A DNA stretch of 58,823 nucleotides from Patescibacteria group bacterium (lineage in GTDB: Bacteria; Patescibacteriota; Minisyncoccia; Phycocordibacterales; Zambryskibacteraceae). The notes under the pieces are model-generated. The model made no database searches and had not been told where the DNA came from. It saw only the letters and a program-made list of their open reading frames with translations. Positions 2,673 through 58,683 of the stretch are shown in pieces (the first letter of the stretch is position 1; every line of letters starts with the position of its first letter). Both the position numbers and the translations under genes were made by a program. The DNA lies in the NCBI GenBank assembly GCA_004322205.1, contig SCSN01000007.1:1-58823 (forward strand), given 5' to 3'.

Positions 2673-3073
2673 GGGGGTGAACCGCTTCGACAAAAAAGTA
2701 ACGCAGAGCAACGCAAGAGGGAGCTGCAGTAACTCCTTAATCTGCTGCAAACGATAACTGCAAACAGCGTTGTCGCAAAGGCAAAGTCAATTCTTTCTCC
2801 ATTCGGAGCGAATGACCTTGCTTTCGCCACAGCTCGAGGTTAACTCGCTCTGGCGACGTCAACTCTTGTGAAGTCTGATAGCAAGATGTTGGTGTAATAT
2901 TCTCGGACTCTGAAGAATTGCGTCCCGCCTTTCTTCGAAACTGTAGGGACTCGATACTGTAAGGTTTTGTTTGCTTCCTACTTACAACATCTAGACTTCT
3001 GAAACAAACTAACTCTTGTAGAAGTTGTTAGGCGGCTTTTTTGGACGGGAGTTCGTTACTCCCCACCTCCACA
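2673..3073 (+). ncRNA. ssrA: tmRNA (SsrA), one-piece
   Basis: 5' GGGGGTG pairs with 3' CACCTCC (3064-3070), including the G3:U alanine identity pair. T-arm GGGAG-TTCGTTA-CTCCC, discriminator A. Internal candidate tag frames start GCA AAC GAT AAC (2747) or GCG AAT GAC (2808). Follows smpB. Confidence 0.85.
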
Positions 3074-3080
3074 ATAAAAA

Positions 3081-9457: not shown

Positions 9458-9643
9458 ATGAAGACCAACAAAGCAGTCAGAAAACGCTTCAAGATAACCA
9501 GAGGCGGGAAGATACTCGCGCGCAAGAGCGGCCAGAATCATTTCAATGCCAAAGAGTCAGGGCGCAGGCAACTTGGCAAAAGCCGCTACGGCGCCGTGAA
9601 ACTCTCCAATAAAACAAGGAGTCGTTTTTTGGTAAATTTATAA
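9458..9643 (+). CDS. rpmI: 50S ribosomal protein L35
   Basis: MKTNKAVRKRFKITRGGKI.. is typical L35. In-frame ATG at 9458 within ORF 9443..9643. Confidence 0.9.
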   Translation: MKTNKAVRKRFKITRGGKILARKSGQNHFNAKESGRRQLGKSRYGAVKLSNKTRSRFLVNL

Positions 9644-9668
9644 GGAGCGTAGCGACTATGTAAATTAC

Positions 9669-9777
9669 CACCCAGCACCATTTTTAAATATGAAATTATG
9701 TTTCATAAAAAATAATACAGTGCTAAAACAAACTTCTGGTGACCACGTAGAGTTGTTATTAAAAATGGTGCTGGGTG
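9669..9777. repeat. Family-B intergenic hairpin element (copy B3) between rpmI and rplT
   Basis: 19-bp perfect terminal inverted repeat cacccagcaccatttttaa / ttaaaaatggtgctgggtg flanking 71 nt. The CCCAGCAC core is shared with the elements at 30124 and 35791. Confidence 0.75.
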
Positions 9778-9815
9778 AAGATTTTTATATTCATTTCATT
9801 CATTAAAAATCAATC

Positions 9816-21476: not shown

Positions 21477-21526
21477 GCCAATATTATACGAACGATACGA
21501 GCGAAGTGAGCAAATAAAATTGAGCA

Positions 21527-21654
21527 CCCCCCACTAACTTTTCCACTCACCAGCCTCGATTTCTCGTCCCATGGACGAAAAATCATTTTTAATACCAGCA
21601 TGATATATAAATTATTCTTCATATAAATCATTGTTCTGAAAAGTTAGTGGGGGG
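21527..21654. repeat. Family-A intergenic hairpin element (copy A1) between rpsH and rplF
   Basis: 17-bp perfect terminal inverted repeat ccccccactaacttttc / gaaaagttagtgggggg. Internal hairpin tcgtcc-cat-ggacga. Conserved aaatcattgttctgaaaagt end. Confidence 0.8.
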
Positions 21655-21705
21655 TAGAGTTTCGCAATCTCTGTTTGCTTCAGCAAGCAAACAGAGGGCG
21701 AATTC

Positions 21706-23822: not shown

Positions 23823-23863
23823 GCCAATATTATATGAGCGAAGCGAATAATAATATTGAGCAT

Positions 23864-23990
23864 CCCCCACTTACTTTTCCCCTCAAAACAAGCGATTTTT
23901 TGTCTTGCAGACAAAAAATCATTTTCAATTCTTGCACGTAATCTAAATTAACGTTTTTGTAAATCATTGTTCTGAAAAGTAAGTGGGGGG
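23864..23990. repeat. Family-A intergenic hairpin element (copy A2) between rpsQ and rplN
   Basis: Terminal inverted repeat cccccacttacttttc / gaaaagtaagtggggg. Internal 12-bp perfect hairpin gattttttgtct-tgc-agacaaaaaatc. About 85% identical to copy A3 by eye. Confidence 0.85.
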
Positions 23991-24005
23991 TTGTGTAATT
24001 CATGG

Positions 24006-24257
24006 TCACTGCGTTTCTTGAATTACAACAAAGTGTTTGTGCTTCGAAATCGGTTTTGTCTCTTGAATCACCACCTTCTCGCCAACCTTCCGAACGTTTC
24101 CCGGATCATGCGCCTTGTATTTTTTCCGATATTCGATGTATTTGCCGTAGCGCGGATGCCTGACGTAGCGGCGCACAAGAACAACCACCGTGTCTTTCAT
24201 CTTGTCCGAGATTACCACTCCAGAAAACTTTTTCCCTTTTGTTTTTGTTTCCGCCAT
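24006..24257 (-). CDS. rpsQ: 30S ribosomal protein S17
   Basis: 83-aa ORF, typical S17. Confidence 0.95.
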   Translation of the reverse strand: MAETKTKGKKFSGVVISDKMKDTVVVLVRRYVRHPRYGKYIEYRKKYKAHDPGNVRKVGEKVVIQETKPISKHKHFVVIQETQ

Positions 24258-28075: not shown

Positions 28076-28121
28076 GTTAGAGATTGTTAGTGAGCGAACG
28101 CGAGCTTACAAGACTCTTACA

Positions 28122-28249
28122 CCCCTCACTTACTTTTCCTCTTAAAATAAGCGATTTTTTGTCTGCAAGACAAAAAATCATTTTCAACTCTTGCGTATAA
28201 CCCAAACTAACATTTTTGTAAATCATTGTTCTGAAAAGTAAGTGGGGGG
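28122..28249. repeat. Family-A intergenic hairpin element (copy A3) between rplW and rplB
   Basis: Terminal inverted repeat cccctcacttacttttc / gaaaagtaagtgggggg (one G:T). Internal hairpin gattttttgtct-gca-agacaaaaaatc. Confidence 0.85.
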
Positions 28250-28277
28250 TTGAGTAATTTATATTCACTTCGCTACG

Positions 28278-28640
28278 TTAAATTACTTCAATCTTCTCTC
28301 CCGCTTTCAAATAGACATACGCCTTCTTGCCGCCGGCCTTCATGCCGCGTCTGCGCCTGCTAAAAATTTTCTTGCGGGGAACATAAGTTACGGCGACTTT
28401 GCGCGGCTTGACCTTGTAGACAAACTCAACCGCTTGGCAGATATCGCGCTTCGTTGCTTCGGGAGAAACTTCAAAAACATAGACATTATCGGCCGTTTTG
28501 TCGGTCGCCTTCTCCGTCACTCGCGGGCGAATGAGAATGTGATCGAGAGCGCGAGAGGGAGTAACGCTTGATTCAGCGCGCTCCGGCGCTTTCTCCTCTT
28601 TCTTCTTTTCTTCCCTCTTCTTTTTACCAAAAAGAGCCAT
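28278..28640 (-). CDS. rplW: 50S ribosomal protein L23 with N-terminal Lys/Glu-rich extension
   Basis: 120-aa ORF, L23 core ILIRPRVTEKA.. Confidence 0.93.
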   Translation of the reverse strand: MALFGKKKREEKKKEEKAPERAESSVTPSRALDHILIRPRVTEKATDKTADNVYVFEVSPEATKRDICQAVEFVYKVKPRKVAVTYVPRKKIFSRRRRGMKAGGKKAYVYLKAGEKIEVI

Positions 28641-41786: not shown

Positions 41787-41803
41787 GCGAGAAGTCTAGC
41801 ACA

Positions 41804-41836
41804 TGAAAAACGCCAGGCACCGTCCGGTGCCTGGCG
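41804..41836 (-). terminator. Rho-independent terminator just upstream of rnhA
   Basis: cgccaggcacc-gtcc-ggtgcctggcg followed by ttttt on the minus strand. Confidence 0.85.
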
Positions 41837-41898
41837 GGAAAGACCCAAGGTTCAAAGTTTCAGGAACTTGCCTGCCCCGTGGCAGAGCTTCGCTCTGC

Positions 41899-42050
41899 TT
41901 ACAGGGCGCGGACAGCCGCGGGGTAATCCCGGCCCCGGGCGTCAAAGAGCCAGCGCCAGCTCGCGATCACCCGCTCGCCGTGCCAGACGAGACACGCCAC
42001 GCACCGGCCGTAGCCGCCGGTGACTATTCCCCTACCACCGCTTGTATAGT
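41899..42050 (-). pseudogene. Orphan C-terminal fragment paralogous to the 3' end of the 42146..42762 gene
   Basis: The translation ..GGYGRCVACLVWHGERVIASWRWLFDARGRDYPAAVRAL* aligns with ..GGDRFVASLVWSDEWVIVSWHWLEFDWNRSNPAAVRASS*. It lies downstream of a strong terminator and has no convincing start. Confidence 0.55.
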
Positions 42051-42051
42051 A

Positions 42052-42088
42052 GCACGAAAACCGCCCAGCGCGCGTGCGCGCTGGGCGG
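42052..42088 (-). terminator. Strong GC-rich rho-independent terminator
   Basis: 12-bp perfect stem ccgcccagcgcg-cacg-cgcgctgggcgg followed by ttttcgtgc (minus strand). Confidence 0.85.
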
Positions 42089-42145
42089 AGGATCGAGTCC
42101 CAAAGGATCCAAGTACAAGATCCAAGAGACTCAAGGTCAAAAGTT

Positions 42146-42762
42146 CTAGGAACTTGCACGGACAGCCGCGGGATTGCTCCGATTCCAGTCGAACTCAAGC
42201 CAGTGCCAGCTCACGATCACCCACTCGTCGCTCCAGACAAGAGAGGCGACGAAGCGGTCACCGCCACGGTCCCGAACGCTTCTCCAAAGGAAAACGTTCT
42301 TACCCTTGAACTCTTCCGGGTAGGTGTCGGGTTCGCTAGCCAGCCCTTGACTTCTTCGTCCTTGAGCGAGAGACAGCGGTTGATGATACCCGTCTCGCGG
42401 AGGTGCTTCTCGAGATCATAACCCTTGATCAGGCCGCCCTCTTTTTGTTTGGGGTGGAAGTAGAGCTTGATCCCTGTCGTCTTCGGCTCGGTTTCGGTAA
42501 GAGTCTGTTCTGCTGTCGAATAGCCGCACACGGGACAGCTCAACTTCTTATCCAAAACCTCGAGAAATGACCCGCAGTTCGGGCATTCGCTTCGAGGTAC
42601 AACGTGGGCTCTCTTCGGAATAGGAACCCAGCACGGCTCACGGCGAAGAAATCTCTTCGCCTCCTCTGTCCACCTTGTTGAATCGTTGCCTAGAAGGCAA
42701 TCCTCGAACTGGTCGCGTAGTCCGCGAATATCGCGGAGTTTCGCTCTGAGCGTGTTGTCCAC
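42146..42762 (-). pseudogene. Zn-ribbon protein of unknown function, reading frame broken by a 1-nt frame change near 42329-42331
   Basis: GTG at 42762 with AAGGAG 6 nt upstream; CPNC..CPVC ribbon. Frame A stops at 42217. From about 42330 another frame reads ..PDTYPEEFKGKNVFLWRSVRDRGGDRFVASLVWSDEWVIVSWHWLEFDW.. to the stop at 42146. Confidence 0.6.
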
Positions 42763-42817
42763 GGTCAGCTCCTTTTTTGAGGTACTGGCGGCTACTATCT
42801 TTCACCGCTCTGGTACT

Positions 42818-42845
42818 ACTATATCAAAAACTCCGTAATTGTCAA
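42818..42845 (-). promoter_or_regulatory. Near-consensus sigma70 promoter of the Zn-ribbon gene
   Basis: Minus strand: TTGACA (42840-42845), 16 nt, TATAGT (42818-42823). Confidence 0.55.
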
Positions 42846-42896
42846 GACCGGGTCATTCAAATAACCGCAAAAAGCAAGAGTGTTAAAACTTCTTTG

Positions 42897-42936
42897 GACT
42901 TCCTTAGTGTATCATATATGATACACTAAGGAAGTC
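42897..42936. promoter_or_regulatory. 40-bp perfect palindrome containing the 26-bp core TTAGTGTATCATATATGATACACTAA
   Basis: gacttccttagtgtatcata|tatgatacactaaggaagtc, verified base by base. Same core as 45686-45711. Confidence 0.7.
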
Positions 42937-42964
42937 TGTTTTTGGGTCTAAATACTCAAAACAA

Positions 42965-44683
42965 TCAAACGATGTCAACTATCCGCAGACGCAGTTCCGG
43001 ATAATTTCTAAAGTTGGATTTTTCAAATGAGGCTATGAGGTCAACGGGCATGCCGACTTGTGGCTTTTTTTCAAAACTCTTTGGCTTTGAAAAAAAGCTG
43101 ATAGCTCTAATATTTTTTTCAGATCCGTTCTCAAAGACAAGTTCCATGTGATTTCCTTCCTTGCCGAACTGACGGACTGTCTTGGGTGAAACATTTTCAA
43201 AAAGAAAAACCGGTTTTGGATTCCCCACCCCAAACGGCGCGAGTTTCTCAATCTCCCTGTAGGTATCCCAGTTCACACCAGAAAGAGAAAGTCTGGAATC
43301 AATCCATTGCCCCGAATCCGCCTCGGCTGATTCGGGGGATGATTTTACTTCTTCGTACGCACGGTTCAGTTCTTCTTCCAGCCTATGAATTTTTTCATGC
43401 GAAACTTCAAATCCGCCAGCAAGTTTGTGTCCGCCGAATTGAATAAAGGTGTCTTTGACCTTCTCCATCAACGCCACGAGATTAACGCTGCCGTCGGAGC
43501 GGCAAGAGCCCTTTAATTCTCTCTCACCGTTTCTGCCCCAAAGAAAAATTGGCCGAGAAAAATCATCAAGCAAGGAGTTGGCCGCCAGCCCCAGAAGCGC
43601 CGGTTTCCAGGAAGGATTGCCGAGCACTAAAACATTCGGCAAACTTGAGAGTTCCCGAATATGCTTTTTAATTTCTTTGACAATACTTGCCACCACACCC
43701 TTGCGCTCGTCGTTTAGGCGATTGAGATAATCGCTTAGCTGATCTGCTTCCGTCTCGTCTTTCGTTGACAGCAGGCGAAAAGCATCCATCGGATGCCCCA
43801 TGCGAGAAGCGGCATTAATGCGAGGTGAGAGGGTAAAACCAACATCGTCCTCCGAAAGATTCTTCGGATCCAGATTGAGTTTCCGCCAGAGTTTCTGCAG
43901 ACCCGGGCGGGGGGACTTTTGAAGAACTTTGAGCCCGTAGTGGGCAAGAGCGCGATTCTCTCCCGTGAGCGGCACCATGTCGGAGAGAGTGGCGATGCCG
44001 ACGAGATCAAGAAACCATTTTTCTTGACCATCTTTAAGATTGAAACGGTTTCTAGAAAGAATTGCCTGAATAAGTTTGAAGACAACCCCCGAGCCGCAGA
44101 GAATTTTTTCTGGATACGGACAATTTTCCTGTTTGGGATTTAAAATGGCGTGTGCTTCAGGCAAGAAACCATTTGCTTCATGGTGGTCTGTGACAATAAC
44201 GTCAATGCCGAGAGCTTTGGCCCGCGCAATTTGCTCAAAGTCAACCGTGCCGCAATCAACGGTAATGAGAAGATTCACTCCTTCGCCGCCAAAGTTCTCC
44301 ACCGCTTCCAAATGAAGCCCGTAGCCCTCATCATGACGATCGGGAATGTAATTCTCGACATTTGCGTGTCCGATTTTCTCAAAAAATTCCCGCAGAACCA
44401 CGGCGCCCGGAATGCCGTCAGCATCATAATCGCTATAGATGAGAATTTTCTCTTTATCCTCTACCGCTTGAAGGATTCGCCCCACAGCCCGCTCCATATC
44501 CCTCATAAGATATGGGTCATGAAGGTGGGTATTATAGTCGGGGTTAAGAAACTGCTCTGCCTCTTCGCGAGACCGAATCCCGCGGTAGTAAAGAAGTTTG
44601 CGAGTTGTTGCGGGGTAAGAGGTCAGTTCTTCGTCGATTCTTTTAGGAATATCTTCTCTCAAGCGGTACTCTTTCTTCGCCAT
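42965..44683 (-). CDS. recJ: Single-stranded-DNA-specific exonuclease RecJ
   Basis: 572 aa, DHH motifs (SDYDADGI, TVDCG, VTDHH) and a DHHA1 region. Confidence 0.92.
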   Translation of the reverse strand: MAKKEYRLREDIPKRIDEELTSYPATTRKLLYYRGIRSREEAEQFLNPDYNTHLHDPYLMRDMERAVGRILQAVEDKEKILIYSDYDADGIPGAVVLREFFEKIGHANVENYIPDRHDEGYGLHLEAVENFGGEGVNLLITVDCGTVDFEQIARAKALGIDVIVTDHHEANGFLPEAHAILNPKQENCPYPEKILCGSGVVFKLIQAILSRNRFNLKDGQEKWFLDLVGIATLSDMVPLTGENRALAHYGLKVLQKSPRPGLQKLWRKLNLDPKNLSEDDVGFTLSPRINAASRMGHPMDAFRLLSTKDETEADQLSDYLNRLNDERKGVVASIVKEIKKHIRELSSLPNVLVLGNPSWKPALLGLAANSLLDDFSRPIFLWGRNGERELKGSCRSDGSVNLVALMEKVKDTFIQFGGHKLAGGFEVSHEKIHRLEEELNRAYEEVKSSPESAEADSGQWIDSRLSLSGVNWDTYREIEKLAPFGVGNPKPVFLFENVSPKTVRQFGKEGNHMELVFENGSEKNIRAISFFSKPKSFEKKPQVGMPVDLIASFEKSNFRNYPELRLRIVDIV

Positions 44684-44706
44684 GAAGCCTATTGTATCAT
44701 GAGTCT

Positions 44707-45081
44707 ATGAACGACCCCGCTTGCATTTTTTGCAAAATTACCAAAAAAGAAATTCCGGCGGAAATCGTGTACGAGGACGAGAACTTTTTAGCTTTTCTCG
44801 ATATCAAACCAGAGTCCCCCGGGCACGCACAGGTAATACCCAAAGAACATTTCCGCTATGTCTGGGACGTGCCAAACGCGGGTGGATTTTTCGAGGTTGT
44901 CAAAAAAATCGCCCGGGCTCAAAGAAAATCATTCGAAACAGACTGGATACTTTCAAAAATCATCGGTGATGAAATAGAGCATGCTCATATTTGGGTCTAT
45001 CCGGGTAACCCCGCGAGGGGAGATAAAAATAATCTCAAGGAAAACGCCGAAAAAATCCGCCAGGTGCTAAGCAACTTATAG
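44707..45081 (+). CDS. HIT (histidine triad) family protein
   Basis: CIFCKI.., triad variant HAHIWVYP. ATG at 44707, 6 nt after TATCAT. Confidence 0.85.
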   Translation: MNDPACIFCKITKKEIPAEIVYEDENFLAFLDIKPESPGHAQVIPKEHFRYVWDVPNAGGFFEVVKKIARAQRKSFETDWILSKIIGDEIEHAHIWVYPGNPARGDKNNLKENAEKIRQVLSNL

Positions 45082-45139
45082 TTATAGATAGTCTTAGCTA
45101 GCAAAAAAGAGTCAAATCAAAATCCCGCCAAAGCCAGCT

Positions 45140-45167
45140 CTTAATGTATCATATATGATATATTAAG
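45140..45167. promoter_or_regulatory. Degenerate copy of the TGTATCATATATGATA palindrome
   Basis: cttaatgtatcata|tatgatatattaag, one mismatch between the arms. Confidence 0.5.
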
Positions 45168-45253
45168 GCAGTTTCTTCAGTTAAGTTCCTTCAGTTAAAA
45201 GTTAAACTTTTATTAATTAAACATTCACTTAACTAGACCTCCGCTTCATACTC

Positions 45254-45658
45254 TCACTTCCTTGAATAAAGAAATTTCCAGCGACCTCTCCCCGCCTTAG
45301 GCGGCAAGCCGGCCCTAAGAATTTTTTCTAGCGCATCCCAAATACTCTCATCGAGTTCTTTCATTGCTCGATTCAAAAAGGAGTATTTGCCTGCCTCACT
45401 CTTAAGTGACATTCTGTAAATTGTTGCCGGACTCATACGAAGTGCCTCGGCAATGTAGGAGACCGGCAAGCCGCGAGAGAGAAGATAAATGACGGAAAAT
45501 CTTTTTGCCAACATTATCTTTTCAGTTTGGGTAAGAAATTCATTCAAGAATTTTATCGTCGCAGACTTTTTGCCAGTTTTCTCCAATGAAAAAACTAACC
45601 TCCGGTATAGATGAGCAAGATGATCCTTTTTCAGTTTTTTGTTTGATACATGCGGCAT
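45254..45658 (-). CDS. TrpR/YerC-like helix-turn-helix protein
   Basis: 134 aa. LTQTEKIMLAKRFSVIYLLSRGLPVSYIAEALRMSPATIYRM matches the Trp-repressor-like HTH pattern. Confidence 0.7.
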   Translation of the reverse strand: MPHVSNKKLKKDHLAHLYRRLVFSLEKTGKKSATIKFLNEFLTQTEKIMLAKRFSVIYLLSRGLPVSYIAEALRMSPATIYRMSLKSEAGKYSFLNRAMKELDESIWDALEKILRAGLPPKAGRGRWKFLYSRK

Positions 45659-45685
45659 ACATTCCTGTTATTTTTTAACACTTAT

Positions 45686-45711
45686 TTAGTGTATCATATA
45701 TGATACACTAA
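45686..45711. promoter_or_regulatory. 26-bp perfect palindrome (candidate operator) 28 nt upstream of the TrpR-like start codon
   Basis: ttagtgtatcatatatgatacactaa, followed at 45737-45778 by three 14-nt direct repeats (ctgtgtatgaagac / ctgtgtacgaacac / caatgtatgaccgc). Confidence 0.6.
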
Positions 45712-45805
45712 CGAAAGTGATTGTCTCACTGATCGCCTGTGTATGAAGACCTGTGTACGAACACCAATGTATGACCGCCCATTACAATCACCCAAGAACT
45801 GCTCA

Positions 45806-46915
45806 CTATTTTAGAGCTTCAATCCCGGACAGAGTCTCATTTGCAAGATACTCAAGCATCGCGCCGCCGGCGGTTGAAACAAAAGTGAACTTGTCTTCGA
45901 GCTTAAGTTCAGCAATCGAAGCAACGGTATCACCTCCGCCAACAATCGTAATGGCCTTGCTCTGGGCAATGGCGCGAGCCAGTGAAAGAGTGCCCTTCCG
46001 AAAACCCATTTCATAATTTCCCAACGGCCCGTTCCACAAGATGAATCGTGAGCTGTCTATCGTTGAACGCAGGGCATTGATAGATTGCGGACCGACGTCA
46101 ACAATCGTATCACCGCTTGTCACATCATCAACAACTTTGAGCTCGATGCCAGAAGCGTTTTTGACAAGAACATCAAGGGGCAGGATAAGTTTTTCCGTGA
46201 AAAATTCTTTGAGATCGAGCTTGCCCTCGGAGAGAATAGAGCGGCCGACATTTTTGCCTTGGGCTTTGAGAAAATCGTTGGCCAGCGCCCCGCCGACAAA
46301 AACACGGTCAGCCAATGAGAAAAACTTCCTGACCAGGGGCATTTTGGTTTCAAACTTGGCTCCGCCGAGCGCGAAGAGAAAAGGATACTCCGGATGAAAG
46401 GCTCGCGAGAGATTTTTCATCTCCTCCTCGAAAACAAAACCTGCAAAGCCAGGCAAAAACTTGGGGACACCAATAATAGAAGCATGCGGGCGGTGGGAGG
46501 CAGAGAATGCTTCGTTGACATAGTAGTCCCCCAGAGACGCCAAGTGCCGAGCAAAATCTTCATCATTACTCCTCTCTTCCGGATAGAAGCGCAGATTTTC
46601 AAGCAAAACAAGTTTTCCTGCACTCAAGTCGCGGCTAAGACCCTCCGGCAGGTCGGGGTAATACTCTTCAATAAACGAAACTGGATAATTCTTTCGCAAA
46701 TAAGTGCAAACGGGCGCCAGGCTGGAGTCGTCTGGGTCGCTGTGACTTGCGAGAATTACCTGAGCCCCCCGCGCGCGCAAAAAATTAATAAGCGGCAAGG
46801 TCTTTCGGATGCGGAAATCATCTGCCACTTCATTGCCCAAAGTGGGAACATTGAAATCAACCCGCACAAAAACTTTTTTCCCGACCAAATCGCCAATGTC
46901 TCGGACGGAGCGCAT
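45806..46915 (-). CDS. pgk: Phosphoglycerate kinase
   Basis: MRSVRDIGDLVGKKVFVRVDFNVP.. from the ATG at 46915. The track ORF extends to 46999, into tpiA. Confidence 0.93.
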   Translation of the reverse strand: MRSVRDIGDLVGKKVFVRVDFNVPTLGNEVADDFRIRKTLPLINFLRARGAQVILASHSDPDDSSLAPVCTYLRKNYPVSFIEEYYPDLPEGLSRDLSAGKLVLLENLRFYPEERSNDEDFARHLASLGDYYVNEAFSASHRPHASIIGVPKFLPGFAGFVFEEEMKNLSRAFHPEYPFLFALGGAKFETKMPLVRKFFSLADRVFVGGALANDFLKAQGKNVGRSILSEGKLDLKEFFTEKLILPLDVLVKNASGIELKVVDDVTSGDTIVDVGPQSINALRSTIDSSRFILWNGPLGNYEMGFRKGTLSLARAIAQSKAITIVGGGDTVASIAELKLEDKFTFVSTAGGAMLEYLANETLSGIEALK

Positions 46916-46919
46916 AACT

Positions 46920-47678
46920 TTATAACCTGCCAACCGCTCGGAGTATTTCCCGAAAGCCGCGCGAGAGGCTGGCGTGCCCGACCAGAAAACCGGAAACATT
47001 CCCCTCCCGAATCAGCTCCGCGGCATTATTCGCCTCGACAGAGCCGCCGTAAACTATTCTCACCGTATCCGCCGCTCTTCTGCCGTACAAGTCGTTGAGA
47101 GTTTTTTGAATAAAGAGAGTGGTTTCATGCAAACCTCGGGCGGAAAGAGCGTCGCGTGCGGTTTTGCCGATTGCCCAGACCGGCTCGTAGGCAACAATAA
47201 TCCCGGGGATGCCGTTTTTCGTGAGTCCTGCGAGTGAGCGTCTTATTTGACCTGCCAGAGCATGAAGATAAGCACCGTGCTCATCACGCTCACCCTCACC
47301 CACGCAGAGAATTGGGGTCAGGCCGGCGGAAAGCGCCGCCGAAACTTTGCGAGAGACAATCTCATCGCTCTCCCCCAGAGCGCGGCGCTCCGAGTGGCCA
47401 ACAATAACATAGCGCACGCCAAGCGAAGCTAACATGGCAGGACTCACCTCTCCGGTCACGGCGCCGCGCGACTGCCAGAAGACATCTTGAGCACCGAGCC
47501 GTACATTTTTGTAACGCTTTCCTGCAAATAGAGAAAGGAAAGGCACAGGTGGAGCAATGACCACTTCAACAGAGCGGAGGGCGCGGGCGGCTGCTCTGGT
47601 CGAAGCAAAGAGACGCTTTGCTTCGACGGGCGAGGCGGGGTTCATCTTCCAGTTTGCAATTACGATATTGCGTGCCAT
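46920..47678 (-). CDS. tpiA: Triosephosphate isomerase
   Basis: 252 aa, IANWKMN, VGHSERR, AYEPVWAIGT-like motifs. Confidence 0.95.
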   Translation of the reverse strand: MARNIVIANWKMNPASPVEAKRLFASTRAAARALRSVEVVIAPPVPFLSLFAGKRYKNVRLGAQDVFWQSRGAVTGEVSPAMLASLGVRYVIVGHSERRALGESDEIVSRKVSAALSAGLTPILCVGEGERDEHGAYLHALAGQIRRSLAGLTKNGIPGIIVAYEPVWAIGKTARDALSARGLHETTLFIQKTLNDLYGRRAADTVRIVYGGSVEANNAAELIREGNVSGFLVGHASLSRGFREILRAVGRL

Positions 47679-52435: not shown

Positions 52436-52491
52436 GATTATCAACCGACAACCGGCAACCAAAAGCTGATGACTTTTGTATTATTCGCAGA

Positions 52492-52522
52492 CATTCGTAT
52501 CATTCGCACTATTCGTATATTC
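52492..52522. repeat. 31-nt element cattcgtatcattcgcaYtattcgtatattc (copy 1), between pilB and pilC
   Basis: 30/31 identical to 58653-58683. Both copies lie 50-57 nt upstream of a minus-strand start codon. Confidence 0.7.
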
Positions 52523-58603: not shown

Positions 58604-58652
58604 GATGATGTAAATAACTTATAAAATGAGCTTTTTAAAGAATATTCGTAGC

Positions 58653-58683
58653 CATTCGTATCATTCGCATTATTCGTATATTC
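58653..58683. repeat. 31-nt element cattcgtatcattcgcaYtattcgtatattc (copy 2)
   Basis: See 52492-52522. Embedded in further ATTCGTA-type words. Confidence 0.7.

What the first reader, a model, noticed from the sequence alone, without database searches (positions are those of the whole stretch)
42897..45778. A 26-bp perfect palindrome present three times around a TrpR-like regulator
TTAGTGTATCATATATGATACACTAA occurs identically at two sites:
- 45686-45711, which is 28 nt upstream of the TrpR/YerC-like gene start.
- 42904-42929, where it is extended to a 40-bp perfect palindrome (42897-42936) about 55 nt upstream of the -35 of the frame-broken Zn-ribbon gene.

A one-mismatch variant lies at 45140-45167, downstream of both HIT and the regulator. 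A TGTATCAT half-site also overlaps the recJ/HIT divergent start region (44693-44700). Three 14-nt direct repeats with a related GTGTA(T/C)GA core follow at 45737-45778.

Inference: this is the operator set of the TrpR-like protein, giving autoregulation plus control of the accessory gene. Alternatively, the identical palindromes bracketing recJ-HIT-trpR-like (2.8 kb) are recombination or hairpin sites.
Basis: partly seen in the sequence, partly recalled or inferred. Interest (0 to 1): 0.65.

Follow-up and report, generated by a model that had tools for sequence, protein, structure and literature searches.

The report
Operator palindromes bracketing TrpR-like regulator gene
The three palindromes are very probably the DNA sites bound by the small TrpR-family protein encoded between two of them; this protein and its site are conserved and change together across Parcubacteria (candidate phyla radiation, CPR), and the extra sites lie at gene ends, not at promoters.

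Summary
TTAGTGTATCATATATGATACACTAA is exact at 42904-42929 (inside a perfect 40-bp palindrome) and at 45686-45711. A variant lies at 45141-45166. None is expected by chance, and the 58.8-kb window has no other copy.

The 134-aa gene (45254-45658, minus) belongs to a large Parcubacteria-specific branch of the Trp_repressor family. In about 70 distinct relatives the gene has the site TTAR-N2-TATCATATATGATA-N2-YTAA both upstream and just past its stop codon.

Where the recognition helix differs, both flanking sites carry the same symmetric core change: SYPT goes with TAAC..GTTA, R-to-K with TACA..TGTA, SETT with CACC..GGTG. So this is a cognate protein/operator pair.

The upstream site overlaps an extended -10 (TGnTATACT) 12-13 nt before the ATG, which suggests autorepression.

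Sites away from the gene number 1-5 per genome. 43% lie between convergent genes and none between divergent genes, so they are not classical promoter operators. Three genomes carry a single site at the syntenic place where relatives carry site-gene-site, which hints at relocation through the sites.

P1 lies at the edge of a lineage-specific 1.2-kb insertion, 51 nt upstream of the -35 of the zinc-ribbon promoter. Control of that gene is unproven. No RNA or binding data exist.

The parts
45254..45658 (-). Gene for a 134-aa TrpR-family (PF01371) DNA-binding protein of a Parcubacteria-specific subfamily. The recognition helix is MSPATIYRMSLK. The C-terminal extension GLPPKAGRGRWKFLY is near-invariant.
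   Evidence: Pfam 33.2 bits against a cut-off of 27. Homologues are 55-70% identical, 130-138 aa long (mostly 132), from Nomurabacteria and Paceibacterota. Alignment A1. 674 clusters at 50% identity reach E<=1e-10. A profile search of PDB sequences finds 3FRW at 1e-5.
45686..45711 (.). P3: the upstream operator, 27 nt before the ATG. On the minus strand it contains TGATACACT (TG at 45695-45696, -10 TACACT at 45688-45693), the equivalent of the TGnTATACT found in relatives.
   Evidence: The upstream site is present in nearly all orthologous loci, and 66 of 73 have the -10-like half on the gene side.
45141..45166 (.). P2: the downstream operator (TTAATGTATCATATATGATATATTAA), 87 nt after the regulator's stop and 59 nt after the HIT stop, between convergent genes.
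   Evidence: A downstream site lies 2-46 nt after the stop in relatives and 87 nt here, measured to the 26-mer. It is almost always followed by a convergent gene.
42897..42936 (.). P1: a solo operator copy. Its 26-mer (42904-42929) is identical to P3 and is extended to a perfect 40-bp palindrome. It lies 28 nt after the recJ stop and 51 nt before the -35 of the next promoter, at the edge of a lineage-specific insertion.
   Evidence: (I23; D8 gives 92% identity to P3 over 36 nt).
42818..42845 (-). Near-consensus sigma-70-type promoter (TTGACA, 16 nt, TG-n-TATAGT) for the zinc-ribbon ORF.
   Evidence: 11 of 12 matches, with TG.
42217..42762 (-). Orphan zinc-ribbon ORF (181 aa) downstream of P1. 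It is not related to the Cys-rich family that carries sites in other genomes.
   Evidence: only one distant homologue.
41787..42964 (.). A 1.18-kb segment absent from syntenic relatives, in which recJ is followed within 20 nt by RNase H. It carries P1, the promoter and the zinc-ribbon ORF.
   Evidence: L157, L159, L063. L199 has the ORF but no palindrome.
45736..45774 (.). 14-nt tandem repeat (consensus CCTGTGTATGAACA, 2.8 copies) between the pgk stop and P3. It is lineage-specific and its role is unknown.
44693..44700 (+). Isolated TGTATCAT octamer at the recJ/HIT divergent starts. It is at chance level and is not counted as part of the system.
42965..44683 (-). recJ (DHH, DHHA1 and RecJ_OB domains). 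P1 lies at its 3' end.
44707..45081 (+). HIT-family hydrolase gene, convergent with the regulator gene. P2 lies between them.
45806..46999 (-). pgk, co-oriented with and upstream of the regulator gene. P3 lies 94 nt after its stop.

Best explanation
The palindrome is the cognate operator of the TrpR-family protein encoded at 45254-45658. The general form is ttCCTTAR-N2-TATCATATATGATA-N2-YTAAGGaa.

Inferred from family membership: a symmetric dimer reads the two TATCA half-sites through its helix-turn-helix.

Shown by comparison: the gene is always bracketed by two directly oriented operators. The upstream one (P3) overlaps the extended -10 of the gene's own promoter, so binding there should repress the gene (autoregulation). 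That last step is inferred from position.

The downstream operator (P2) and solo operators such as P1 lie in short gaps at gene 3' ends. The most likely role there is a protein-bound boundary: a roadblock or insulator that stops read-through between neighbouring or convergent transcription units. This is inferred and weakly supported.

The sites also appear to have served as crossover points when the regulator gene changed place during evolution.

Whether P1 controls the zinc-ribbon gene is not established.
For: 1. Three copies in the window against 0 expected by chance.
2. All 23 regulator genes in the genome-scan loci have the site upstream, and 22 of 23 have it downstream. The same holds in 80 loci fetched by protein alone, with no DNA pattern used.
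3. Helix and core co-vary, with both flanking sites changing together:
   - SPAT..R goes with TATCATATATGATA (64 of 76 sites exact, the rest one change away).
   - SYPT..R goes with TAAC/TAAT...GTTA-type cores (9 of 10 sites).
   - R-to-K goes with TACA..TGTA or ..CGTA types (15 of 18 sites).
   - SETT goes with CACC..GGTG (3 of 4 sites).
   - SYST-L goes with TAGC..GCTA.
4. The N positions of the two arms are usually not complementary, and RNA hairpins in relatives are weak (-3.5 to -8.4 kcal/mol; z about -1 in three of the four imperfect sites folded, -3.1 in the fourth). The constraint therefore acts on double-stranded DNA recognition.
5. 66 of 73 upstream sites have TGnTATAYT on the gene side. 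In 35 of 67 loci the 26-mer ends 12-13 nt before the invariant MPH(I/V)SSKK start. The -10 is kept even where the core has changed.
6. The protein passes the Pfam Trp_repressor threshold, and its nearest solved relatives are TrpR-like/HisR proteins.
7. TrpR and HisR are known to bind 20-bp palindromes and are often autoregulated (PMC9413887).
Against: No binding, expression or transcript-end data exist. The window is held only by DNA metagenome runs. One low-depth metatranscriptome of a relative shows no RNA over the gene or its sites.

Solo sites are enriched between convergent genes (23 of 53) and absent from divergent regions (0 of 53). This is not what a classical repressor regulon looks like.

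The distance between upstream and downstream sites shows no helical phasing, so a fixed loop is not supported.

In this window the -10 inside P3 (TACACT) is weaker than in relatives.

The helix/core classes are probably few independent evolutionary events (about 4-5).

The structure model is of low confidence (pLDDT 62).
Confidence: 0.75

Rival explanations
1. The palindromes are mainly recombination sites. The regulator gene with one site behaves as a cassette that is excised and re-inserted at other copies of the palindrome, by a host tyrosine recombinase or by short-homology recombination. The protein's binding would serve that process or merely accompany it.
For: Three genomes have exactly one site at a syntenic place where relatives have site-gene-site. 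They are L015 (pgk -> site <- HIT-recJ), L104 (ThrRS -> site <- Ham1-GyrB) and L052 (UDG -> site <- DUF4406...GyrB). For L015 and L052 the same genome's regulator gene was found in another context (L089, L062).

The upstream and downstream sites are directly oriented. They share more identity at free positions than random pairs do (3.35 against 2.84 of 6, p<2e-4; 2.49 if one site is reversed).

P1 is identical to P3 and lies at the edge of a 1.18-kb insertion.

The arm / AT-rich centre / arm layout resembles the core sites of tyrosine recombinases (own knowledge).
Against: The gene's context is conserved within each of three large clades, so moves were rare. No recombinase gene travels with it. 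No rearranged or empty form appears in contigs at about 178x depth, although contigs drop rare variants. Within-genome similarity of sites is only marginally raised (8.1 against 7.6 of 14, p=0.03). Recombination alone does not explain the helix/core co-variation or the embedded -10.
Confidence: 0.2
2. The protein and its site form mainly a transcription boundary system rather than a promoter repressor. The bound palindromes act as bidirectional roadblocks at operon ends and between convergent genes, and the regulator gene is insulated by its own sites.
For: Solo sites are convergent in 23 of 53 cases and divergent in 0 of 53. The background is 14-17% convergent and 14-19% divergent (p = 3e-7 to 5e-6 and 5e-4 to 3e-5). 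8 of 8 tested neighbours are real genes, for example tig -> site <- pyrB and purA -> site <- purD.

Many sites sit 4-40 nt from stop codons. The downstream site of the regulator is almost always in a convergent gap. P1 lies between the recJ stop and a strong promoter. Read directly from the sequence, the site closes all six reading frames.
Against: There is no transcript 3'-end evidence. Nine sites lie 6-19 nt before the ATG of a Cys-rich protein gene, and others lie upstream of tRNA-Ser; these look like ordinary regulatory positions. No dedicated sequence-specific roadblock terminator is known to me in bacteria (own knowledge). The gene calls used here are home-made.
Confidence: 0.25
3. The palindromes act as RNA (or single-strand DNA) hairpins, as intrinsic terminators or mRNA 3'-end stabilisers, and their closeness to the regulator gene is incidental.
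For: P1 folds at -28.6 to -30.1 kcal/mol and on the plus strand is followed by a T run. The sites lie at 3' ends. Core changes are symmetric and keep pairing.
Against: The T run after P1 is on the strand that has no gene. Hairpins in relatives are weak (-3.5 to -8.4 kcal/mol; z about -1 in three of the four imperfect sites folded, -3.1 in the fourth) because the N positions do not pair. The sequence, not just the structure, is conserved over proteins that are only 55-70% identical. The same core change occurs at both sites of a genome and tracks the recognition helix.
Confidence: 0.05
4. A chance or high-copy genomic repeat (REP- or MITE-like) unrelated to regulation.
For: It is a short palindromic intergenic repeat found at 3' ends, and a gene flanked by two copies recalls REP/RAYT (own knowledge).
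Against: There are only 3-7 exact sites per genome. No third site lies within 8 kb of the gene in about 40 loci. The flanked gene encodes only a helix-turn-helix protein, not a Y1 transposase. Zero copies are expected by chance.
Confidence: 0.02

Closest known systems
HisR (YerC) and other TrpR-like proteins of Firmicutes (PDB 3FRW, 3G1C, 3KOR; PMC9413887)
   Same: Same Pfam family (PF01371), and the nearest solved relatives by profile search (3FRW at 1e-5). Both are small all-helical helix-turn-helix proteins with a palindromic operator. The regulator gene is often preceded by its own site. Operator consensus varies by lineage.
   Different: - It does not reach the YerC/YecD model cut-off (no hit at E<=0.01 for the window protein; 14.9-20.8 bits against 42.2 for three homologues).
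- It is 130-145 aa long, against under 100 for HisR, because of an invariant C-terminal GLPPxxGRGRWKFLY.
- The operator is 26-34 bp (TTAR-N2-TATCATATATGATA-N2-YTAA), not cacTTTA-N6-TAAAgtg.
- No his genes lie next to sites.
- The gene has a second operator after its stop codon.
- Solo sites lie at gene 3' ends.
E. coli TrpR and its trp operator
   Same: Family-level homology, and the top Foldseek hits, though weak. The operator is a palindrome starting TGTA in this window's copies. Autoregulation works through an operator overlapping the promoter. By my own alignment from memory, the equivalents of TrpR T44, R54, T81 and R84 are T43, R53, T79 and R82, all conserved in alignment A1.
   Different: It is not an orthologue (18.1 bits against 67.25 for TIGR01321). 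The core spacing and sequence differ from TGTAcTnGTnnACnAgTACA. The host lineage generally lacks tryptophan synthesis (own knowledge), and the effector is unknown.
REP elements with RAYT transposase genes
   Same: A gene flanked by two copies of a short palindrome, with further copies in intergenic regions at gene 3' ends.
   Different: The flanked gene has no Y1 transposase domain. Copy number is 3-7 per genome, not hundreds. The sites are directly oriented, and the sequence is conserved across a whole class of bacteria.
dif/pdif modules moved by XerC/XerD
   Same: Short arm / AT-rich centre / arm sites flank a discrete gene module. Single sites remain at empty positions.
   Different: No Xer binding was tested. 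The site is a symmetric palindrome that co-varies with a helix-turn-helix protein, not with a recombinase. The module is a conserved core gene.
B. subtilis RTP with Ter sites, and ParB with parS
   Same: A small DNA-binding protein whose gene lies next to its own sites and is autoregulated by them, with a handful of further sites elsewhere that serve a function other than promoter control (own knowledge).
   Different: No evidence links the sites to the replication terminus or origin; GC skew in the window is uninformative. The protein fold differs. The sites are fully symmetric, whereas Ter sites are polar.

Membership tests
Trp_repressor family (Pfam PF01371) | Sequence match above the curated threshold | tested here: met
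   33.2 bits against a cut-off of 27, E=5.7e-8, residues 21-92. Homologues carry precomputed PF01371 hits.
Trp_repressor family (Pfam PF01371) | Homology to solved TrpR-like structures, with an all-helical fold and a helix-turn-helix | tested here: met
   Profile search of PDB sequences: 3FRW 1e-5, 3G1C 1.3e-3, 3KOR 1e-2. The AF2 model is all-helical but of low confidence (pLDDT 62). Foldseek's top hits are E. coli TrpR, at only E about 0.2.
Trp_repressor family (Pfam PF01371) | Palindromic operator bound by a dimer | tested here: inconclusive
   A conserved palindrome that co-varies with the recognition helix was found. Binding itself and the dimeric state could not be tested.
Trp_repressor family (Pfam PF01371) | Amino-acid corepressor needed for binding | not testable with these tools
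   There is only conservation of residues that align with TrpR ligand contacts, which is an inference from alignment A1.
TrpR orthologue (NCBIfam TIGR01321) | Score above the equivalog cut-off | tested here: not met
   18.1 bits against 67.25. Homologues score 15.8-23.4 bits.
YerC/YecD = HisR (NCBIfam TIGR02531) | Score above the cut-off | tested here: not met
   No hit at E<=0.01 for the window protein. Homologues score 14.9-20.8 bits against 42.2.
YerC/YecD = HisR (NCBIfam TIGR02531) | Operator cacTTTA-N6-TAAAgtg upstream of his genes | tested here: not met
   The operator here is TTAR-N2-TATCATATATGATA-N2-YTAA. Neighbours of sites are the regulator itself, Cys-rich proteins, pyrB, purA/purD, ligA, SpoU and pgk/HIT. 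The HisR motif is taken from PMC9413887.
Intrinsic (Rho-independent) terminator | Stable G+C-rich hairpin followed by a U run on the transcribed strand | tested here: not met
   Only P1 fits the pattern, and on the plus strand, where no gene ends. Relatives fold at -3.5 to -8.4 kcal/mol, which for three of the four imperfect sites folded is within the range of shuffled sequence.
REP/RAYT | Y1 (HUH) transposase gene between inverted REPs, with hundreds of copies | tested here: not met
   The flanked gene is helix-turn-helix only. There are 3-7 exact sites per genome. The sites are directly oriented.
Xer/dif-type module | Sites bound and recombined by XerC/XerD; a module flanked by sites; empty single sites | tested here: inconclusive
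   The module/empty-site pattern was seen in three genomes. There is no recombinase evidence and no variant contigs.

The most novel reading that the evidence does not exclude
The protein and its palindrome are a dedicated boundary system of Parcubacteria. The symmetric site closes all six reading frames. When occupied by the TrpR-like dimer, it would block transcription from both sides at convergent gene ends and operon borders. The regulator gene sits between two such sites, so it both represses and insulates itself, and it has moved between sites as a cassette by recombination at its own operator.
Probability: 0.2. Interest if true: 0.8.

Novelty: new variant of a known kind. Interest (0 to 1): 0.62.

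Why it matters
Almost nothing is known about gene regulation in CPR bacteria. They cannot be grown alone and have very few regulators.

This finding gives a concrete, widely conserved pair of regulator and DNA site. There are 674 protein clusters at 50% identity. The operator is defined, and several natural changes of specificity pair helix residues with core bases. All of this can be tested directly with purified protein.

The layout is unusual: an operator on both sides of the gene, and solo sites at convergent gene ends but never in divergent promoter regions. It suggests either a protein-dependent transcription boundary or a gene that relocates through its own operator. Neither is a standard behaviour of the TrpR family.

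The motif can also be used to annotate regulons and operon borders in Parcubacteria metagenome-assembled genomes.

Tried and rejected
- Gene calling filtered by amino-acid composition was rejected. It discarded the regulator gene itself and membrane proteins. It was replaced by a codon-usage model, which was checked with Pfam on 8 neighbours.
- The AlphaFold monomer model was poor (pLDDT 62). Foldseek gave only weak TrpR hits.
- RNA evidence: the window is held only by DNA runs. One metatranscriptome for relative L176 was too shallow.
- Helical phasing of the distance between the two operators: none.
- tRNA or known RNA genes hidden in convergent gaps: none next to convergent solo sites. tRNA-Ser lies downstream of three tandem sites.
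- Homology between the window's zinc-ribbon ORF and the Cys-rich target family: none.
- A replication origin or terminus signal near the sites: GC skew is uninformative.
- Structural variants at the palindromes in metagenome contigs: none. One apparent joint (42934 to 45139) has only 29 letters on its shorter side, all within a palindrome. Loose ends at 45139 and 45167 show unrelated sequence on either side of a palindrome match. I read the joint as an alignment effect and the loose ends as the same palindrome present in other contexts in this metagenome.
- Literature search for a described CPR TrpR-like motif: nothing found.


Full report
**1. The observation.** The 26-mer TTAGTGTATCATATATGATACACTAA occurs exactly at 42904-42929 (P1) and 45686-45711 (P3). 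A variant, TTAATGTATCATATATGATATATTAA, lies at 45141-45166 (P2). It has three differences from the 26-mer and one unpaired position as a palindrome. No match is expected by chance, and no other copy exists in the 58.8-kb window at up to three mismatches. P1 is the centre of a perfect 40-bp palindrome, 42897-42936.

The sites all lie between genes:
- P1 lies between the stop of recJ (42965-44683, minus) and a zinc-ribbon ORF (42217-42762, minus).
- P2 lies between the convergent HIT gene (44707-45081, plus) and the regulator gene (45254-45658, minus).
- P3 lies between the stop of pgk (45806-46999, minus) and the regulator's ATG.

The isolated TGTATCAT at 44693 is what chance gives (0.68 expected). 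The 14-nt tandem repeat at 45736-45774 is real but is missing in relatives with the same gene order.

**2. The protein.** The 134-aa product passes the Pfam Trp_repressor threshold. It reaches neither the TrpR orthologue model nor the YerC/YecD (HisR) model. Its closest solved relatives by profile search are the HisR-like proteins 3FRW, 3G1C and 3KOR.

Homologues are 130-138-aa proteins (mostly 132) of Nomurabacteria, Zambryskibacteria and other Paceibacterota, 55-70% identical. They share an invariant N-terminus, MPH(I/V)SSKK, and an invariant C-terminal extension, GLPPxxGRGRWKFLY, which TrpR and HisR lack. The family is large: 674 clusters at 50% identity with E<=1e-10, nearly all full length. 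The window comes from a groundwater metagenome organism. It is syntenic with Zambryskibacteria-type contigs.

**3. The site goes with the gene.** In the first three orthologous loci I fetched, which have a different gene neighbourhood, the same core TATCATATATGATA appeared both upstream of the ATG and about 30 nt after the stop.

A scan of 185,579 species genomes with TTANNNTATCATATATGATANNNTAA gave 112 stretches. About 85 are from Patescibacteria, with 3-7 exact sites per genome on different contigs. All 23 regulator genes in those loci have the upstream site, and 22 of 23 have the downstream one.

A second sample of 80 loci was fetched by protein similarity only, so it is not biased by the DNA pattern. 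It shows the same picture. The consensus extends to about 34 bp: ttCCTTAR-N2-TATCATATATGATA-N2-YTAAGGaa.

**4. The site and the recognition helix change together.** Among 75 distinct proteins:
- Helix M-S-P-A-T-I-x-R-M goes with TATCATATATGATA (64 of 76 sites exact, the rest one change away).
- (I/V)-S-Y-P-T goes with TAAC/TAAT...GTTA-type cores (9 of 10 sites).
- V-S-Y-S-T-L goes with TAGCATATATGCTA.
- Replacing the helix arginine by lysine goes with TACA..TGTA or ..CGTA cores (15 of 18 sites).
- M-S-E-T-T..YN goes with CACCATATATGGTG (3 of 4 sites).

The upstream and downstream sites of one genome carry the same symmetric change. A hairpin constraint alone would not make two separate sites change alike, nor would it track a protein helix.

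The N positions of the two arms usually do not pair. Predicted RNA hairpins in relatives are weak (-3.5 to -8.4 kcal/mol; three of the four imperfect sites folded are within the range of shuffled sequence), although the window's own perfect palindromes fold well.

I conclude that the palindrome is the double-stranded DNA site of this protein. The classes probably represent only four or five independent events, so this is strong circumstantial evidence, not proof.

**5. The upstream site is built into the promoter.** In 66 of 73 upstream sites the half facing the gene reads TGATATA(C/T)TAA, an extended -10. Only 9 of 73 have that on the far half. In 35 of 67 loci the 26-mer ends 12-13 nt before the ATG, with no Shine-Dalgarno sequence in between. 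The TATACT is kept even in lineages whose core has changed. A protein bound here would cover the -10 and spacer, which is the classical position for autorepression.

In the window the corresponding element is TGATACACT (45688-45696, minus strand). It is followed by a 27-nt leader with AGGA. This step is inferred from position. No transcript data exist: the window is in DNA runs only, and the one metatranscriptome that holds a relative is too shallow.

**6. The other sites are not at promoters.** Sites away from the regulator gene (solo sites) number 1-5 per genome. I called genes with a codon-usage model. On that basis 23 of 53 solo sites lie between convergent genes and none between divergent genes. 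The background in the same loci is 14-17% convergent and 14-19% divergent (p = 3e-7 to 5e-6 and 5e-4 to 3e-5). A cruder gene call gave the same direction.

Eight of eight tested neighbours are genuine genes. Examples are trigger factor -> site <- pyrB, mazF -> site <- pyrB and purA -> site <- purD. No tRNA or Rfam RNA hides in the convergent gaps.

Recurrent positions:
- 6-19 nt before the ATG of one member of tandem arrays of a Cys-rich protein of about 570 aa (9 loci).
- Between the ligA stop and tRNA-Ser(GGA).
- At the 3' end of a SpoU methylase gene.

The regulator's own downstream site is almost always in a convergent gap. The distance between the two flanking sites shows no helical phasing. 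Read directly from the sequence, the consensus closes all six reading frames.

The simplest reading is that the bound protein marks or enforces boundaries between transcription units. This is an inference without transcript evidence.

**7. Signs of relocation through the sites.** The regulator gene lies in three syntenic contexts, each typical of a clade:
- ThrRS-[gene]-(Ham1 or DUF4406)-GyrB.
- GAPDH-[gene]-RpiB or DapF.
- tpi-pgk-[gene]-HIT-recJ, the window's context.

Three genomes carry exactly one site at a context that is occupied in other clades:
- L015 has pgk -> site <- HIT-recJ. The regulator gene of the same genome lies next to ThrRS (L089).
- L104 has ThrRS -> site <- Ham1-GyrB.
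- L052 has UDG -> site <- DUF4406...GyrB. Its gene lies next to GAPDH (L062).

The two flanking sites are directly oriented. They are more alike at free positions than random pairs (3.35 against 2.84 of 6, p<2e-4). This is the pattern expected if site-gene-site and a single site interconvert by recombination. The events were rare, no recombinase is linked to the gene, and contigs at 178x depth show no variant form.

**8. P1 in this window.** Within 8 kb of the gene, about 40 related loci have no third site. Syntenic relatives go from recJ straight to RNase H within 20 nt. The window has 1.18 kb inserted there (41787-42964). The insertion begins with P1 and contains a near-consensus promoter (42845 to 42818, minus) and an orphan zinc-ribbon ORF.

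The only homologue of that ORF (L199) sits at the same place with its own promoter, with no palindrome, and with no regulator gene between pgk and HIT. P1 is identical to P3 over the 26-mer and 92% identical over 36 nt, so it is probably a recent copy.

Its position is 28 nt after the recJ stop and 51 nt before the -35. That fits a boundary between recJ and the inserted gene better than an operator for that gene. Neither role is shown.

**9. Comparison with what is known.** The closest described systems are HisR (YerC) and TrpR: small TrpR-family repressors with 20-bp palindromic operators that vary by lineage and frequent autoregulation (PMC9413887). Here the family membership holds at the Pfam level only.

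These features differ:
- The operator is longer and has a different sequence.
- The protein carries a conserved arginine/glycine-rich tail.
- The gene has operators on both sides.
- The solo sites lie at gene ends.

REP/RAYT, Xer/dif modules, RTP/Ter and ParB/parS resemble parts of the anatomy but fail on defining features (see the membership table). Searches of the paper library found no description of this motif or subfamily.

**10. Verdict.** Control of the zinc-ribbon gene is not supported. The recombination alternative has some support, but for the P2-gene-P3 unit.

The system is a new variant of a known kind. Its interest lies in its breadth across CPR bacteria, its readable specificity code, and the unexplained preference of solo sites for gene ends.

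Noticed in passing
window 21525-21686, 23861-24022, 28120-28281: Three copies (70-85% identical) of a roughly 160-nt element with nested inverted repeats. The outer pair is CCCCCCACTTACTTTTCC ... GAAAAGTAAGTGGGGGG. The inner hairpin is GATTTTTTGTCT-N3-AGACAAAAAATC. One copy has paired changes that keep the inner stem. There is no Rfam match. It is a candidate structured RNA or miniature mobile element.
   Followed up: partly
window 41787-42964: A 1.18-kb insertion relative to syntenic relatives, between recJ and RNase H. It holds P1, a near-consensus promoter and an orphan zinc-ribbon ORF. It also holds G+C-rich duplicated segments that encode ...WNRSNPAAVRA in another frame, and a strong terminator-like hairpin at 42061-42088.
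   Followed up: partly
L011, L020, L024, L040, L046, L050, L053, L065, L068, L069, L071, L080, L081, L103, L115: Many Clostridia and other Bacillota genomes carry a different perfect 26-bp palindrome with the same centre, TTATGTTATCATATATGATAACATAA. It is not next to a CPR-type regulator gene. Its nature is unknown.
   Followed up: no
L008, L016, L022, L029, L030, L079, L109, L114 (and arrays in L102, L108): Parcubacteria carry tandem arrays of Cys-rich proteins of about 570 aa, with only a weak treble-clef zinc-finger match. The operator lies 6-19 nt before the ATG of one paralogue, making it the most frequent target after the regulator itself.
   Followed up: partly
L072 1067-1241; L110 2485-2677; L010 4167-4437: The operator lies between the ligA stop and a tRNA-Ser(GGA) gene, 62-160 nt upstream of the tRNA.
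   Followed up: no
L098, L111, L032, L019, L049, L093, L015, L104, L052: Genes that abut convergent solo sites have a nucleotide-metabolism flavour: pyrB, purA, purD, HIT, Ham1 and a DUF4406 (nucleoside deoxyribosyltransferase-like) protein, plus a SpoU methylase. This is a possible hint to the effector or the regulon theme.
   Followed up: no
window 44683-44707: The recJ and HIT genes diverge with only about 23 nt between their start codons, so both promoters must lie inside the neighbour's coding sequence.
   Followed up: no
window 52482-52522 and 58643-58683: A 41-nt repeat, 93% identical, with an internal ATTCG(T/C)A periodicity. Its purpose is unknown.
   Followed up: no
window 2673-3074; 9636-9810: A tmRNA gene lies at 2673-3074. 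A 52-nt imperfect inverted repeat pair lies at 9636-9687 and 9759-9810, where gene orientation switches from plus to minus.
   Followed up: no
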